Both the position numbers and the translations under genes were made by a program. From NCBI GenBank assembly GCA_012455605.1, contig GCA_012455605.1_3618.1: a stretch of 64,000 nt of DNA; one strand, given 5' to 3'. The number at the start of each line of letters is the position of its first letter. Position 1 is the stretch's first letter. The notes beneath the pieces are model-generated. The model was not told the DNA's origin. It worked only from the letters and a program-made list of their open reading frames with translations, and did no database searches. The stretch comes from a phage. Below are positions 14,921 to 48,469 of this stretch, piece by piece.

Positions 14921-15146
14921 CACCACAACAATTGAGAGAGGGAGCACTATGGAGACTAAAATCTTAATTCTAGCTGTGATAGATACAACCGAAGGGGCTG
15001 TGTTCGAATCTGCAGGAGGGTATTTCTACCTACCCTACGGAAAAAGAACTGCCGAACCGGGTAAAGATTCAATCATCAAAGTGTTCCCGTGTGCTTTCTG
15101 GCTGGAGATTCTGGTATAAGATTGCAGAAGATTTGGGAGAGAATTA

Positions 15147-15340
15147 TGAGAAACAAGAAAGAACTTTACTCTGGTGAGTGGATCAACGATCAACAGGTGG
15201 GAGAGGTAACCTGCTTCCGATGTTTTACCAGGTACAATCTTAAAACTGCACCAAAAAGTGTTCCAAAGACTGACGGTTATTACATAAAAGAACCTCATTG
15301 CCCAAAATGTAAATGCCGATTGTACTGGAGCAATCTGTAA
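15147..15340 (+). CDS. small Cys-rich protein (CxxC...CxxC)
   Basis: Start moved to MRNKKE; CFRC and CPKCKC pairs suggest a zinc ribbon. Confidence 0.4.
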
Positions 15341-45172: not shown

Positions 45173-45523
45173 TTACTGCAACAGTTTTTCAATAGCCGCT
45201 TCCATGCTGCTTGCAACAGCCTGAACTCGGATATTCATCTCTTCTTGGTGGATCAGCTCCTTAAGCTCTTTAATGGTAAATTCTTTAGAGAAACCTTCCA
45301 CCATAATCTTGTGTAAGGCTTCTTGCGTGCCTACTTGCAAGAACTTTTCCAGTTTGTTGGCAGAGGCTTCTAAATCAGCCCGAATACGAGGGTCATCTGT
45401 GCGATTCAGCATTAGGCGTAAGCCATCAAGATTAGTAGAAATAGCGTCTGCATGTTGAGTAACTAACCGTGGCAAAATGAGATCTACAAACTTATTAGCC
45501 AAATCGATACGTTCTTGTGTCAC
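45173..45523 (-). CDS. hypothetical protein
   Basis: 116 aa; GTG start overlapping the upstream stop (GTGA). Confidence 0.45.
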   Translation of the reverse strand: MTQERIDLANKFVDLILPRLVTQHADAISTNLDGLRLMLNRTDDPRIRADLEASANKLEKFLQVGTQEALHKIMVEGFSKEFTIKELKELIHQEEMNIRVQAVASSMEAAIEKLLQ

Positions 45524-45633
45524 TGTTGCACCCCCTCTTCATCCTCATGATATTTCTTTTCACGCTTGTGTTTTTTCTTAAGCTCAAGCGCAATTTCTTT
45601 TTTGTACGCCTTCTTCAAGGCTTTTTTAGCCAT
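45520..45633 (-). CDS. small lysine-rich protein (37 aa)
   Basis: ORF below the track cutoff; GGAGGAGG upstream; sits between a consensus promoter and the next gene. Confidence 0.4.
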   Translation of the reverse strand: MAKKALKKAYKKEIALELKKKHKREKKYHEDEEGVQQ

Positions 45634-45664: not shown

Positions 45665-45694
45665 ATTATACCTATCTAAACAAAACTTTGTCAA
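45665..45694 (-). promoter_or_regulatory. sigma70-like promoter on the minus strand (TTGACA-N18-TATAAT)
   Basis: Perfect hexamers read on the reverse strand just downstream of the nrdG stop. Confidence 0.5.
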
Positions 45695-45697
45695 CAA

Positions 45698-46171
45698 CTA
45701 GTCTACCTGAACCCAACCGCCTGGTACTTTTTTAAACATTCTTTGGTTATCACTGCCTCGGAACGGTTTCTTGGTTGGTAAATCTTTTACATACTTACCG
45801 TCAATGATGATATCAGCCAGTTTAAGAACATCACTAGAGATATGGTCAAATGTGAACCCAGTATATACAAGAATAGTTTTCTTGTCACCAAATTTTTCCT
45901 TAATTTTCTCCATCAAGCTAATAATATCTGGCTCATTATAGTATGCTAAGGGTTCTCCCCCCAGCAGAGAGATACCGCACACAGATGGGTTATCTAAATC
46001 TGACAAGATTTTTTGTAAATCTTCTTCAGTGAACTCTCTCCCCTTATCTTTTGACCAAAATGCCTGATTAAAGCAACCAGGGCAAGCGTGTGGGCACCCA
46101 GATACCCACAAGGCAGTTCTAATACCTGGCCCTTCGGTGTAAGATATTTCTGCGTATCCGACAATATTCAT
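45698..46171 (-). CDS. nrdG: anaerobic ribonucleotide reductase activating protein NrdG (radical SAM)
   Basis: CPHACPGCFN radical-SAM cysteine motif; start set at MNIVGY, whose ATG overlaps the upstream small ORF's TGA. Confidence 0.85.
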   Translation of the reverse strand: MNIVGYAEISYTEGPGIRTALWVSGCPHACPGCFNQAFWSKDKGREFTEEDLQKILSDLDNPSVCGISLLGGEPLAYYNEPDIISLMEKIKEKFGDKKTILVYTGFTFDHISSDVLKLADIIIDGKYVKDLPTKKPFRGSDNQRMFKKVPGGWVQVD

Positions 46172-46284
46172 AGATACTCCGCATCGCATTCAGGGCAATG
46201 CCAAATAAAATCGTCCAGTGCCTTGCACCAACGAAGATTGCAACGACAACCGCACTTGCAAATTTTATAAATACCTGTAGACAT
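46168..46284 (-). CDS. small Cys-rich protein (38 aa), translationally coupled to nrdG
   Basis: MSTGIYKICKCGCRCNLRWCKALDDFIWHCPECDAEYL; AGGAGG 6 nt upstream; ATGA overlap with nrdG. Confidence 0.4.
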   Translation of the reverse strand: MSTGIYKICKCGCRCNLRWCKALDDFIWHCPECDAEYL

Positions 46285-46345
46285 ACTGTACCTCCTAGCT
46301 CGCTGTGCCAACAATATGCCACATCCTTGTGGATTTTGTCAAGTA

Positions 46346-48469
46346 TCAGCAACCACAACTTCCGTAGTGCTTAACCCGTTCTATAACTTCCGCTTGCTTA
46401 CCTTTATTGTAAGGACGGGAGTTTGGACTAGACAGGTACCCGGATACACGTCTGATCACACTGATCGTTCCCTCTTCATGGTTTCCACACTCTGGGCATA
46501 CAAAGCCTTTAGCTGTTGCACTAAACTCACCAGAGAAACCACACTTGAGACATTTATCCACAGGTTGGTTAATACCAAAATACATAATGTGTTTATACCC
46601 GAAGTCAACAAGAGCCTCTAAAGCATCTAAATTGTTTTTCAGATTTGGTGTCTCTACGTATCCGATGTTGCCGCCAGAGGAGATCATAGCAAAACCCTCC
46701 TCATACTCCCACTTATCAAAAGGAGAGCTATTGATCCACACTGGCTGATGGAAACTGTTGGTGAGATATTCATGCTCGTGCTTCAACACTTCAGGATATT
46801 CACGATCCAGACAGGTTGCAGCTTTATAGCATAGACTCTCAGAAGGGGTGCCGTACAAGCTAAACGCTAGTCTACTTTCCTTCTTGTATCGCTCACAAGC
46901 ATCTCTCATGTGCTGAAGTATTCCAAGAGCTAAAGCCTTGTCACCCTCCCTGCCCAAAATCTGACAGGTTTCATACACACCAATATACCCAATACTGATG
47001 GAAGCGTACCCGTCATAGAAGAGTTTATCAATACTCTCTTCAGGATCCAGGCGAGCAAGAGCGCCTTCACACCACATGATAGGGTTCTGCCCTGCTTTGG
47101 TGCCTTTCAGACGGTTAACCCTTACAAGGTGAGCTTCATATGCCAAATCCAGATACTCGTCAAGAACGGCAAAGAAATCAACACCTTCCGTCTTAGCTTT
47201 TGCCGCAATCATTGGCAGGTTAAGACTAACAACACCCAAGTTGAATCTGCCGAGGTATTTCTCCTCACCTGTTTCCAAGTCATTGTATTTGCTAAGAAAA
47301 CTCCGGCAACCCATGCTCGTTACTTTGCCATCTGTCGAGCCTGTCACTTTACGATTTAGTGGAACAGAAACAAAGTCAGGATAAATCCGCTCTGCAGAGC
47401 ATTCCAGAGCTAATCGTTTCAAATCATAGTTGGGATCTCCAGGGCTCATGTTGACACCCTCTTCTAGGAAGAACAGCACTTTAGGGAACACAGGTGTGAT
47501 ACGTTCTTCACCAAGACCCATTTTGTGGACTTTCAAATAGTTTTTGGTAATCATTCTACCAAAGACCGAGGTATCCAGTCCTAAACTTAATGTGATGAAT
47601 GGAGTTTGCCCGTTGACAGAGGTTAACGTATTGATTTGATAGAGCAAAGTCTGCATGCTGTCAAATACGTCTTTATCTGTCATTTGCATTGCAACAGTCT
47701 CAGCATCTGGCAACCAATGTTCCTGGCAAAATTTAAGGTTCTTCTCATAGGTTGCTTCAGCATACTGTGCCAGATAATGATCAATATGGCTCATAGTCTG
47801 ACCACCATATTGAGCACTAGCTACCGCACTAGAGATTTGGCTAAGGATTGTTGTTGCAACCCCTATTGACTTCGGCTTACTGACATGGGCGTTACCAATG
47901 TTGAATCCGTTTTCCAACATATCTGGATAATTTACTAAACAACAGTTTGTTAACGGACTGATCAAATAGTCAAGGTCATGCACATGGATGAAGCCTTTAT
48001 TGTGCTCTTCGGAGACACGGTCTGGCAGGATCTGTGTCGATGCAAGGTGTTTGCTAAGGATGCCTGCAAGCAGGTCACGATGAGTGTGTACATGATTGGT
48101 AGGCTTATTTGCGTTTTCTTTTGTAAATTCATCACAAGTGCGATCCAGGAAGCCACTAATATCTGCAAGCAGTTTTCCACCTGCCTCTCTGTTATTATCT
48201 CTTGTCTGCCTATACTGGATGTATTCTCTGGCTGCACATTTTAAACCCATATCCATAAGAGCGTCTTCAACAAGGATATGGATATTTTTTACAGAGATCG
48301 TGCACTGGTCGGTTGGTAGATTGTTAGCAACAACTTCATTAACCGCGCAGGCGATCCGGTAAGCTTCTTCTTCAGTATGTCCAGACTCAAGTAAGGCGGA
48401 CTCTGCCGCCTTGATCACCTTAATTCCGTTATAGAACTCTTCTCTACCGTCCCGTTTTACAACTTTCAC
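46346..48469 (-). CDS. nrdD: anaerobic ribonucleotide reductase NrdD (class III)
   Basis: N-terminal ATP-cone; C-terminal Zn ribbon CLKCG...CPECG and glycyl-radical motif RRVSGYL. Confidence 0.9.
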   Translation of the reverse strand: MKVVKRDGREEFYNGIKVIKAAESALLESGHTEEEAYRIACAVNEVVANNLPTDQCTISVKNIHILVEDALMDMGLKCAAREYIQYRQTRDNNREAGGKLLADISGFLDRTCDEFTKENANKPTNHVHTHRDLLAGILSKHLASTQILPDRVSEEHNKGFIHVHDLDYLISPLTNCCLVNYPDMLENGFNIGNAHVSKPKSIGVATTILSQISSAVASAQYGGQTMSHIDHYLAQYAEATYEKNLKFCQEHWLPDAETVAMQMTDKDVFDSMQTLLYQINTLTSVNGQTPFITLSLGLDTSVFGRMITKNYLKVHKMGLGEERITPVFPKVLFFLEEGVNMSPGDPNYDLKRLALECSAERIYPDFVSVPLNRKVTGSTDGKVTSMGCRSFLSKYNDLETGEEKYLGRFNLGVVSLNLPMIAAKAKTEGVDFFAVLDEYLDLAYEAHLVRVNRLKGTKAGQNPIMWCEGALARLDPEESIDKLFYDGYASISIGYIGVYETCQILGREGDKALALGILQHMRDACERYKKESRLAFSLYGTPSESLCYKAATCLDREYPEVLKHEHEYLTNSFHQPVWINSSPFDKWEYEEGFAMISSGGNIGYVETPNLKNNLDALEALVDFGYKHIMYFGINQPVDKCLKCGFSGEFSATAKGFVCPECGNHEEGTISVIRRVSGYLSSPNSRPYNKGKQAEVIERVKHYGSCGC

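What the first reader, a model, noticed from the sequence alone, without database searches (positions are those of the whole stretch)
46168..46284. Unannotated 38 aa Cys-rich ORF translationally coupled to nrdG
A strong AGGAGG ribosome-binding site precedes an ORF encoding MSTGIYKICKCGCRCNLRWCKALDDFIWHCPECDAEYL, whose TGA overlaps the nrdG ATG (ATGA). The eight cysteines and one histidine suggest a metal-binding mini-protein associated with the anaerobic RNR system.
Basis: seen in the sequence. Interest (0 to 1): 0.45.

Follow-up and report, generated by a model that had tools for sequence, protein, structure and literature searches.

The report
Small zinc-ribbon gene beside phage nrdG
A real 38-residue, cysteine-rich zinc-ribbon mini-protein gene sits between the anaerobic ribonucleotide reductase genes of this rV5-like E. 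coli phage, but it is already listed in databases as a hypothetical protein and behaves like a swappable accessory gene, not a dedicated reductase part.

Summary
The ORF is real. It lies on the minus strand at 46284..46168, has AGGAGG 6 nt upstream, and its TGA overlaps the nrdG ATG (ATGA). It has 7 cysteines, not 8, and the histidine is not conserved.

The window is an rV5-like Vequintavirus. About 120 phage records carry the ORF. Many already annotate it as a hypothetical protein, and it is PHROG 20137.

It is under strong purifying selection: pN/pS is 0.05-0.15, variable sites by codon position are 8/2/18, and all 7 Cys are invariant. An AlphaFold model of a CxxC variant (pLDDT 76) superposes on classic zinc ribbons such as Rpb9.

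The link to the reductase is positional only:
- Sister lineages couple nrdD directly to nrdG without this ORF.
- 33 rV5-type phages have two other ORFs between it and a divergent nrdG, yet keep it intact.
- The podovirus ACG-C91 has no nrd genes. It carries the ORF in a variable slot, ATGA-coupled to DNA ligase, where relatives hold unrelated mini-ORFs.

Best reading: an exchangeable zinc-ribbon accessory micro-protein of unknown target. Here it also relays translation to nrdG. This is an ordinary kind of phage gene, so interest is low to moderate.

The parts
46168..46284 (-). Small CDS: 38 aa plus TGA. Cys7 zinc-ribbon-type micro-protein, member of phrog_20137.
   Evidence: Sequence and translation. 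PHROG match at E 2.3e-31. Purifying selection. Zinc-ribbon model and fold matches.
46291..46296 (-). Shine-Dalgarno AGGAGG of the small ORF, 6 nt before its ATG.
   Evidence: Read directly from the sequence. SD-like motifs sit at the same place in SophiaRose, the Logan contig and ACG-C91.
46168..46171 (-). ATGA overlap: the stop codon of the small ORF overlaps the start codon of nrdG.
   Evidence: The same ...TATGAATAT junction occurs before DNA ligase in ACG-C91.
46177..46180 (-). GGAG Shine-Dalgarno of nrdG. It lies inside codons Ala35-Glu36 of the small ORF, 5 nt before the nrdG ATG.
   Evidence: Read from the sequence. The Murica record annotates the RBS of its nrdG at the equivalent position.
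45698..46171 (-). nrdG, the class III RNR activase (157 aa, radical SAM/Fer4_12).
   Evidence: Pfam Fer4_12 at 9.5e-43 and Radical_SAM at 7.7e-10. Start confirmed by alignment with divergent NrdGs.
46346..48469 (-). nrdD, the class III RNR catalytic subunit (707 aa). It ends 61 nt upstream of the small ORF.
   Evidence: Pfam NRDD at 7.8e-161, plus Gly_radical and ATP-cone.
46313..46342 (-). Promoter-like site (TTGACA, 18 nt, TG-CATATT) in the nrdD/small-ORF spacer. It overlaps a small hairpin at 46319..46332.
   Evidence: Consensus scan only. It is not conserved where homing endonuclease genes are inserted. Function is not shown.

Best explanation
The ORF is a real, expressed-looking micro-gene of rV5-like (Vequintavirus) phages. 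It encodes a 38-residue Cys7 protein that most likely folds as a zinc ribbon. The first knuckle would be C9/C11, which is CxxC in some variants. The second would be C30-P-E-C33. The extra invariant C13, C15 and C20 could form a second, partial or shared, metal site.

It is best understood as an exchangeable accessory cassette. It was inserted into the formerly direct nrdD-nrdG stop/start junction and is co-expressed with the nucleotide-metabolism genes.

In this window it also acts as a relay for translation of nrdG. Its last codons carry nrdG's GGAG, and its TGA overlaps nrdG's ATG. Ribosomes finishing the mini-protein can therefore start nrdG, replacing the ancestral nrdD-to-nrdG coupling.

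The protein itself probably works by binding a partner, a host or phage protein or a nucleic acid, as other phage zinc-ribbon mini-proteins do. That partner is not shown to be NrdD or NrdG.

Shown: the gene, its conservation, the coupling signals, its mobility between contexts, and the zinc-ribbon-type model. Inferred: metal binding, actual translation and coupling, and the mode of action.
For: - Purifying selection in this frame: pN/pS is 0.05-0.15 at pS up to 0.8-0.9, and variable sites by codon position are 8/2/18.
- Conservation: 24 of 38 columns are invariant in the six-sequence family alignment, and all 7 Cys are invariant in 15 distinct sequences.
- SD and ATGA signals are present.
- Fold: the AF2 model of the CxxC variant has pLDDT 76, with a core of 82-84 and three strands. 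Top Foldseek PDB hits are Rpb9/C11 zinc ribbons, a NUDIX N-terminal zinc ribbon and ZifS, with probability 0.96-0.99, TM(query) 0.63-0.73 and rmsd 1.0-1.7 A over 31-34 residues. BFVD hits are phage zinc-ribbon mini-proteins. The PDB profile hit is the eL43 knuckle IWHCPKCG.
- Cassette behaviour, sister lineages: CB7 and ukendt have nrdD overlapping nrdG by ATGA with no ORF. IMG/VR contigs L026 and L028 have only 47 nt between nrdD and nrdG.
- Cassette behaviour, rV5 type: 33 records carry about 390 nt with two other ORFs between the intact small ORF (own TAA stop) and a divergent nrdG allele.
- Cassette behaviour, ACG-C91: it has no nrdD or nrdG. It carries the ORF ATGA-coupled to a DNA ligase gene. 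DNA similarity to the window is confined to the stretch from ATG to TGA.
- Variable slot: the same slot in K1E holds an unrelated 38-aa CxxC..CxxC ORF, and in vB_EcoP_B a Cys-free 57-aa ORF. All end in ATGAATAT.
- The small protein is 37/38 identical across NrdG alleles that are 84/157 identical.
Against: - No expression data exist for any family member, and nothing was found in the literature.
- The fold matches are not statistically significant by E-value (at least 0.25), because the domain is tiny.
- The model of the window's own CxC variant is poor (pLDDT 60).
- No Pfam or NCBIfam zinc-ribbon family is matched.
- In roughly three quarters of the phage records the ORF does sit directly in front of nrdG.
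- Every context found is a nucleotide-metabolism or replication module, so a role tied to dNTP supply is not excluded.
- ACG-C91 infects E. coli, which has its own NrdDG, so its copy could still act on a class III RNR.
Confidence: 0.55

Rival explanations
1. Dedicated accessory of the anaerobic (class III) ribonucleotide reductase. A metal-binding mini-protein would assist NrdG/NrdD. It could be a rubredoxin-like electron donor for reductive SAM cleavage, a Zn/Fe chaperone, or a structural partner of the NrdD C-terminal zinc ribbon.
For: - It is placed between nrdD and nrdG, on the same strand, in about 120 phage records, and is directly coupled to nrdG in most.
- Its CxxCG...CPEC pattern resembles the NrdD C-terminal ribbon (CLKCG...CPECG), although hhalign gives only 22% probability.
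- Unrelated phages L067, L097 and L104 also have zinc-ribbon ORFs ATGA-coupled upstream of nrdG. A crude enrichment test gives 3/26 versus 7/226, Fisher p = 0.07.
Against: - It is absent from closely related phages with functional-looking nrdDG.
- It is uncoupled from nrdG in 33 rV5-type records.
- It does not co-vary with NrdG alleles.
- It is present in ACG-C91, which has no nrd genes, next to DNA ligase.
- Cys-rich NrdD tails do not co-occur with the ORF.
- It matches no RNR, rubredoxin or Fe-S family.
- The enrichment signal is weak, and the genomes concerned are rich in CxxC mini-ORFs anyway.
Confidence: 0.2
2. Homing-endonuclease-related element. It could be a domesticated or remnant zinc-finger DNA-binding module of a free-standing homing endonuclease. 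Or it could be a sequence kept because it marks or protects a homing site at the nrdD/nrdG junction.
For: - Endonuclease genes are inserted immediately upstream of the ORF in SophiaRose, JEP1, PMBT16 and L009. They are of the T5orf172/GIY-YIG-like type with DUF4379/DUF723 zinc fingers, or HNH_3.
- In T4, mobC occupies the nrdG/nrdD spacer, and nrdD/nrdG are known homing targets (PMC2988022).
- The endonuclease zinc-finger modules have a similar CxxCG...GCPECG shape.
Against: - hhalign probabilities to those modules are only 5-11%.
- The ORF has no nuclease motif.
- It has its own strong SD and amino-acid-level purifying selection.
- It is present in most genomes without any neighbouring endonuclease gene.
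Confidence: 0.1
3. The peptide is irrelevant. Either the ORF exists only as a leader that delivers ribosomes to nrdG, or the region is a non-coding regulatory element. The Murica record annotates a terminator inside it.
For: - The ATGA overlap and embedded GGAG are present.
- The Murica record annotates a terminator at the equivalent of 46215..46231 and calls no CDS.
- A weak hairpin followed by a T-run is found there.
Against: - Substitutions follow the codon pattern of this frame, and almost every residue is conserved.
- The ORF stays intact with its own TAA stop where it is no longer next to nrdG.
- The RNA fold is no more stable than shuffled sequence (z = -1.28).
- The hairpin has three G-U pairs and shows no compensatory changes.
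Confidence: 0.04

Closest known systems
PHROG phrog_20137 and GenBank 'hypothetical protein' entries of rV5-like phages (e.g. AXU22564.1 Pr121lw_45, QXV82697.1 bas54_0177, YP_008530353.1; UniProt A0A9E7SGM6)
   Same: This is the same family and often the same sequence. The HMM match is full length at E 2.3e-31, and the Pr121LW copy is 100% identical. The gene position is the same.
   Different: Nothing differs in the sequence. However, the label 'ribonucleotide reductase' carried by the PHROG and some RefSeq records has no support. The protein matches no RNR family, and the name looks borrowed from its neighbours.
Classic zinc ribbons (Rpb9/C11/TFIIS-type, eL43, the N-terminal ribbon of a NUDIX hydrolase) and small zinc-finger proteins (ZifS, HVO_2753)
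   Same: It has two Cys knuckles (CxxC/CxC and W-x-CPxC) about 18 residues apart. It has a predicted three-stranded sheet. Superposition gives rmsd 1.0-1.7 A with TM(query) 0.63-0.73. It shares the IWHCPxC knuckle with eL43.
   Different: It has three additional invariant cysteines (C13, C15, C20). No significant sequence or E-value match exists to any family. In most members the first knuckle is CxC, not CxxC.
C-terminal Zn(Cys)4 ribbon of NrdD
   Same: The neighbouring gene carries CLKCG-x14-CPECG, and the small protein carries C(x1-2)CG-x17-CPEC. Both are zinc-ribbon-type knuckles.
   Different: The hhalign probability is only 22%. The spacing differs, and the small protein has extra Cys. 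There is no glycyl-radical motif. The small protein also occurs without any NrdD.
Variable mini-ORF slots and 'moron'-like accessory cassettes of phages (the slot between nucleotide kinase and DNA ligase in Vectrevirus), and free-standing homing endonuclease insertions at nrdD/nrdG (T4 mobC)
   Same: It is a short, self-contained ORF that replaces or interrupts a stop/start junction between conserved genes. It is exchanged between unrelated phages with breakpoints at its own start and stop codons (PMC2988022).
   Different: It has no mobility enzyme of its own. How it moves is unknown; recombination at the short ATGAAT junction is only inferred.
Rubredoxin, and bacterial metallothionein SmtA
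   Same: Only the pattern is shared. Rubredoxin has CxxCG/CPxC knuckles. SmtA has CxCxxCxCN...YYCxxxC, compared with CxCxCxCN...IWHCxxC here.
   Different: There is no Pfam hit. hhalign to SmtA gives 5%. The knuckle spacing differs from rubredoxin, which I state from my own knowledge of rubredoxin sequences.

Membership tests
phrog_20137 (phage protein family) | Full-length match to the family HMM | tested here: met
   E 2.3e-31, 108.6 bits, residues 1-38 on profile positions 1-38 of 38.
Zinc ribbon fold | Two Cys-Cys knuckles flanking a beta hairpin | tested here: met
   C9-x-C11 (CxxC in P0004, P0005 and P0008) and C30-P-E-C33 are invariant in all copies.
Zinc ribbon fold | Three-stranded antiparallel sheet that superposes on solved zinc ribbons | tested here: inconclusive
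   The model of the 41-aa variant has pLDDT 76. Rpb9, C11, NUDIX and ZifS ribbons match at rmsd 1.0-1.7 A with probability up to 0.99, but E is at least 0.25. The model of the window's own sequence has pLDDT 60.
Zinc ribbon fold | Significant match to a curated zinc-ribbon sequence family | tested here: not met
   No Pfam family at E <= 1. NCBIfam shows only L37ae at E 5.3. The PDB profile search gives eL43 at E 0.47.
Zinc ribbon fold | Binds one Zn(II) through four Cys | not testable with these tools
   This needs metal analysis of purified protein.
Class III ribonucleotide reductase components (NrdD, NrdG) | Homology to the NRDD/Gly_radical or radical-SAM activase families | tested here: not met
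   No Pfam match for the 38-aa protein, while its neighbours match strongly. hhalign to the NrdD C-terminus gives 22%.
Class III ribonucleotide reductase components (NrdD, NrdG) | Obligatory co-occurrence and adjacency with nrdD/nrdG | tested here: not met
   It is absent where nrdD and nrdG are directly coupled. It is separated from nrdG in 33 records. It is present in ACG-C91 without nrd genes.
Rubredoxin / prokaryotic metallothionein | Match to the family profile | tested here: not met
   No Pfam hit. SmtA (identity checked against 1JJD) aligns with 5% probability.
Homing endonuclease or its DNA-binding module | A nuclease motif (GIY-YIG, HNH), or significant similarity to the DUF4379/DUF723 zinc fingers of the neighbouring endonucleases | tested here: not met
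   No Pfam hit. hhalign gives 5-11% against JEP1_174 and SophiaRose_117.
Known anti-defence or defence proteins (PADLOC) | Match to a PADLOC model | tested here: not met
   No family at E <= 10.

The most novel reading that the evidence does not exclude
The Cys7 mini-protein is a phage-encoded metal cofactor protein for the anaerobic reductase. It might be a minimal rubredoxin-like electron donor that lets NrdG cleave SAM without host flavodoxin, or a partner that completes a metal site with NrdD. Analogous zinc-ribbon ORFs coupled to nrdG in unrelated phages (L067, L097, L104) would then be convergent versions of the same accessory. That would be the first accessory subunit described for class III RNR.
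Probability: 0.1. Interest if true: 0.7.

Novelty: new member of a known kind. Interest (0 to 1): 0.25.

Why it matters
As it stands, the result matters little. It adds one more narrowly distributed phage zinc-ribbon micro-protein of unknown target, already present in databases as a hypothetical protein.

Two points have practical value. First, the database label 'ribonucleotide reductase' for this family (phrog_20137 and some RefSeq records) is unsupported and should not be propagated. Second, the locus is a clean natural example of a micro-ORF cassette. It has been exchanged between a myovirus and a podovirus with breakpoints exactly at its start and stop codons, each time inheriting or creating translational coupling to the downstream enzyme gene.

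If the low-probability RNR-accessory reading were true, it would change the textbook two-protein picture of class III RNR activation.

Tried and rejected
- Pfam, NCBIfam and PADLOC scans of the 38-aa and 53-aa forms found nothing usable.
- A profile search of 1.84 billion representative proteins found only family members, plus two spurious low-complexity repeat proteins, P0009 and P0010.
- The bacterial and archaeal genome scan found no copy. Metagenome and IMG/VR scans found only vequintavirus-like contigs and ACG-C91.
- Derivation from the NrdD C-terminal ribbon is not supported (hhalign 22%).
- Derivation from the zinc fingers of the adjacent homing endonucleases is not supported (5-11%).
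- Resemblance to the bacterial metallothionein SmtA is pattern only (5%).
- Co-occurrence of the ORF with Cys-rich NrdD C-terminal tails (YGSCGC) was rejected. L006 has the ORF but no such tail. L077 and L026 have Cys-containing tails but no ORF.
- An RNA element or terminator inside the ORF is not supported (z = -1.28, no covariation).
- Enrichment of two-knuckle ORFs directly upstream of phage nrdG is not significant (3/26 vs 7/226, p = 0.07). The test is also confounded by genomes rich in CxxC mini-ORFs.
- Cys richness alone is not significant as evidence.
- Literature searches for the family, the peptide motif and Vequintavirus expression data found nothing relevant.
- The longer TTG-started 48-aa form was rejected. 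The extension is not conserved and is closed by a stop codon in relatives.

Full report
**What is there**

The finding's coordinates hold an ORF on the minus strand, 46284..46168 (114 coding nt plus TGA). It encodes MSTGIYKICKCGCRCNLRWCKALDDFIWHCPECDAEYL. AGGAGG lies at 46296..46291, six nucleotides before the ATG. The TGA overlaps the ATG of the next gene as ATGA (46171..46168). The peptide has seven cysteines (positions 9, 11, 13, 15, 20, 30, 33) and one histidine, not eight cysteines.

The flanking genes are nrdD (46346..48469, minus; Pfam NRDD 7.8e-161, Gly_radical, ATP-cone) and nrdG (45698..46171, minus; Fer4_12 9.5e-43, Radical_SAM). nrdG's own GGAG (46180..46177) lies inside codons 35-36 of the small ORF. 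A promoter-like TTGACA-18-TGCATATT sits in the 61-nt spacer after nrdD, but this is only a consensus match.

**Where the window comes from, and whether the ORF is unannotated**

The region is 94-97% identical to rV5-like E. coli myoviruses, genus Vequintavirus. The best match is Pr121LW. In many of these records the ORF is already a called CDS. Examples are Pr121lw_45, bas54_0177, JEP1_173 and YP6_00217 ('hypothetical protein'), and the RefSeq entry P766_gp108 ('ribonucleotide reductase'). It also defines PHROG phrog_20137, which is 38 profile positions long (E 2.3e-31). A few records leave it uncalled. Murica instead annotates a terminator inside it. So 'unannotated' is not correct for public data.

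**Is it a gene?**

Cysteine content alone is weak evidence. About 0.13 such ORFs are expected by chance among 511 small ORFs, and an obviously spurious ORF in the window is equally Cys-rich. Conservation settles the question:
- tblastn finds the ORF in 122 phage records.
- Across 13 distinct core sequences taken from 16 fetched copies, pN/pS is 0.05-0.15, while pS reaches 0.77-0.9 between lineages.
- With the later loci added (24 copies, 15 distinct cores), variable sites fall 8/2/18 on codon positions 1/2/3 (chi-square p = 9e-4), and all seven Cys are invariant.
- Other invariant residues are N16, L17, R18, W19, L23, D24, D25, I27, W28, P31, E36 and Y37.
- His29 is Tyr in four of the 15 sequences, so it is not a conserved ligand.
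- The RNA of the region folds no better than shuffled sequence (z = -1.28).
- The weak hairpin that Murica calls a terminator has G-U pairs and no compensatory changes.
- The upstream ATG that would extend nrdG into the ORF (46189) has no counterpart in several relatives. M1-N2 of NrdG is invariant across six divergent NrdGs.
- The TTG-started 48-aa extension of the small ORF is likewise not conserved.

**What kind of protein**

No Pfam, NCBIfam or PADLOC family matches. A profile search of 1.84 billion representative proteins returns only family members. These are 38-54 aa variants, some with CxxC in place of CxC at the first knuckle and a Lys/Glu-rich N-terminal extension. Two spurious repeat proteins also appear. 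No bacterial or archaeal genome carries the ORF.

A PDB profile search finds only the zinc-ribbon knuckle IWHCPKCG of ribosomal protein eL43 (E 0.47). AlphaFold gives a poor model for the window's own sequence (pLDDT 60). It gives a usable one for the 41-aa CxxC variant P0005, with mean pLDDT 76, a core of 82-84, and a knuckle followed by three strands.

Foldseek then places that model on classic zinc ribbons. These include Rpb9 and C11 of RNA polymerases, the N-terminal ribbon of a NUDIX hydrolase, and the small zinc-finger protein ZifS. Probabilities are 0.96-0.99, TM(query) is 0.63-0.73, and rmsd is 1.0-1.7 A over 31-34 residues. E-values are at least 0.25 because the domain is tiny. Against viral models, the top hit is a family member annotated 'Uncharacterized protein'. 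The rest are assorted phage zinc-ribbon mini-proteins, including Lar-type restriction-alleviation proteins.

I conclude it is a zinc-ribbon-type metal-binding micro-protein. Three extra invariant Cys may form a second or shared site. Metal binding itself is inferred, not shown.

**Is it part of the anaerobic reductase system?**

The position is conserved in most vequintaviruses, but several observations argue against a dedicated role.

1. Related lineages do not have it. In Certrevirus CB7 (same subfamily) and Phapecoctavirus ukendt, the nrdD stop overlaps the nrdG start directly (..TCATGAATTT..). IMG/VR contigs L026 and L028 have NrdG 64-66% identical to the window's, with only 47 nt between nrdD and nrdG. 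The ORF is therefore an insertion into an ancestral stop/start junction, and it took over the ATGA coupling.

2. In 33 records (rV5 itself, Alma, PMBT16 and others), about 390 nt carrying two other small ORFs lie between the small ORF and nrdG. The small ORF there ends with its own TAA. nrdG is a different allele, 84/157 identical to the window's. The small protein stays 37/38 identical. A protein that docks specifically on NrdG would be expected to co-vary with it.

3. The podovirus vB_EcoP_ACG-C91 (Vectrevirus, SP6-like) has no nrdD or nrdG. It nevertheless carries a 36-aa homologue that its record does not annotate. This copy is 77% identical over the 35 aligned residues, with pS about 0.55 against the window, so the transfer is not recent. 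It sits between a DUF3310 'nucleotide kinase' gene and an ATP-dependent DNA ligase gene, and its stop overlaps the ligase ATG in the same ..TATGAATAT.. junction. DNA similarity to the window starts at the ATG and ends at that junction.

4. That position is a variable slot. K1E has there an unrelated 38-aa CxxC...CxxC ORF. vB_EcoP_B has a Cys-free 57-aa ORF (phrog_15259). Both are coupled to ligase in the same way.

5. Cys-rich C-terminal tails of NrdD do not track the presence of the ORF.

Some points favour a link. The pattern resembles the NrdD C-terminal ribbon, but hhalign gives only 22%. Three unrelated phage lineages have other zinc-ribbon ORFs ATGA-coupled upstream of nrdG. However, a crude enrichment test gives 3/26 versus 7/226 (p = 0.07), and those genomes are full of CxxC mini-ORFs.

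**Neighbourhood dynamics**

The nrdD/small-ORF spacer is a landing site for homing endonuclease genes. T5orf172/GIY-YIG-like genes with DUF4379/DUF723 zinc fingers are found there in SophiaRose, JEP1 and PMBT16, and an HNH_3 gene in L009. This matches what is known for T4, where mobC sits between nrdG and nrdD (PMC2988022). The small protein shows no significant similarity to the zinc fingers of these endonucleases (5-11%), so a remnant origin is not supported.

**Most likely mechanism**

The ORF is an exchangeable accessory micro-gene, co-expressed with the nucleotide-metabolism cluster. The steps and their status are:
- Its product folds around zinc as a ribbon. This is inferred from the invariant Cys and the model.
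- It acts by binding some partner protein or nucleic acid. This is inferred by analogy with other phage zinc-ribbon mini-proteins. The partner is unknown.
- In this window its translation is physically linked to that of nrdG through the embedded GGAG and the ATGA overlap. The signals are shown in the sequence. Actual coupling is inferred.

I put about 0.55 on this reading, 0.2 on a true RNR accessory, 0.1 on a homing-endonuclease-related role, and a few percent on a peptide-irrelevant leader or non-coding element.

**Comparison with what is known, novelty and score**

It is a member of phrog_20137 and works like the many small zinc-ribbon proteins of phages. It is not a member of any RNR, rubredoxin, metallothionein or nuclease family by the tests run. 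The 'ribonucleotide reductase' name attached to the family in PHROGs and RefSeq appears to be borrowed from neighbouring genes. A similar case is phrog_13972, labelled 'DNA ligase', which is the best though weak match (E 2.8e-4) of the K1E slot ORF.

Novelty is 'new member of a known kind', and interest is 0.25. The most novel reading not excluded is a convergent class of zinc-ribbon accessories for NrdG. I give it about 0.1 probability. It would be interesting if true (0.7).

Noticed in passing
window 15089..15340 (+): Another small two-knuckle ORF on the locally coding strand. It probably starts at an internal ATG and gives about 64 aa: MRNKKELYSGEWINDQQVGEVTCFRCF...HCPKCKCRLYWSNL. This CxxC...CPxC pattern suggests a second zinc-ribbon mini-protein candidate in the window.
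   Followed up: no
window 45520..45633 (-), with promoter-like site at 45665..45694 (-): A 37-aa Lys/Glu-rich ORF (MAKKALKKAYKKEIALELKKKHKREKKYHEDEEGVQQ; phrog_7670, function unknown) lies just after nrdG. A perfect sigma-70 consensus TTGACA-18-TATAAT precedes it. The rV5 record annotates a promoter (P118) at the equivalent place.
   Followed up: partly
L013 1333..1705 (rV5) and 32 other phage records; absent from the window: rV5-type phages carry an extra segment of about 390 nt between the small ORF and nrdG. It holds a 34-aa Lys-rich ORF and a 78-aa ORF (phrog_3249, labelled 'putative minor capsid protein' in some records). The 78-aa ORF is ATGA-coupled to a divergent nrdG allele that is only 54% identical to the window's. 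Two nrdG alleles therefore circulate within one genus.
   Followed up: partly
window 46346..46500 (nrdD 3' end) versus L005, L010, L014: The NrdD zinc-ribbon/glycyl-radical end is mosaic among close relatives (GFVCPECGNHEEGT versus GFCCPACGCHDEQY). This is consistent with gene-conversion tracts near homing-endonuclease insertion sites. Vequintavirus NrdD also ends in an unusual YGSCGC tail.
   Followed up: partly
L002 (MaxBurger), L006 (Logan DRR596585), L005, L010, L016, L009: nrdD and its downstream spacer are repeatedly invaded in relatives. MaxBurger has an intron-like split nrdD with a homing endonuclease. L006 has a split nrdD with an HNH-NUMOD1 ORF. T5orf172/GIY-YIG-like or HNH_3 genes lie directly upstream of the small ORF in the others.
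   Followed up: partly
L105 699..815 (phage K1E); L106 699..872 (vB_EcoP_B): The slot between the DUF3310 'nucleotide kinase' gene and DNA ligase in Vectrevirus holds interchangeable mini-ORFs. K1E has an unrelated 38-aa zinc ribbon (MTCPNCGSEETEHVVMSDTYHFYFCHSCDTTIEEEEAV). vB_EcoP_B has a Cys-free 57-aa ORF. Each carries the SD for ligase and ends in ATGAATAT.
   Followed up: partly
L067 2160..2504, L097 2305..2463, L104 2226..2504: Unrelated phage contigs have other zinc-ribbon-containing ORFs (114, 52 and 92 aa) whose stop codons overlap the nrdG start. A crude enrichment test against other small ORFs gives p = 0.07, which is not significant.
   Followed up: partly
GenBank MG0656xx records (hits H2, H3, H8-H10 and others): Eighteen records named 'Campylobacter phage' are 92-97% identical to E. 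coli rV5-like phages over this region. The host labels look doubtful.
   Followed up: no
L012 1201..1386 (phage Alma); P0007 (ENA contig, 1.5 kb): There are occasional disrupted copies of the small ORF. Alma has a frameshift after Ala35 that gives a 61-aa product. P0007 diverges after Cys20. These could be sequencing errors or real decay.
   Followed up: no
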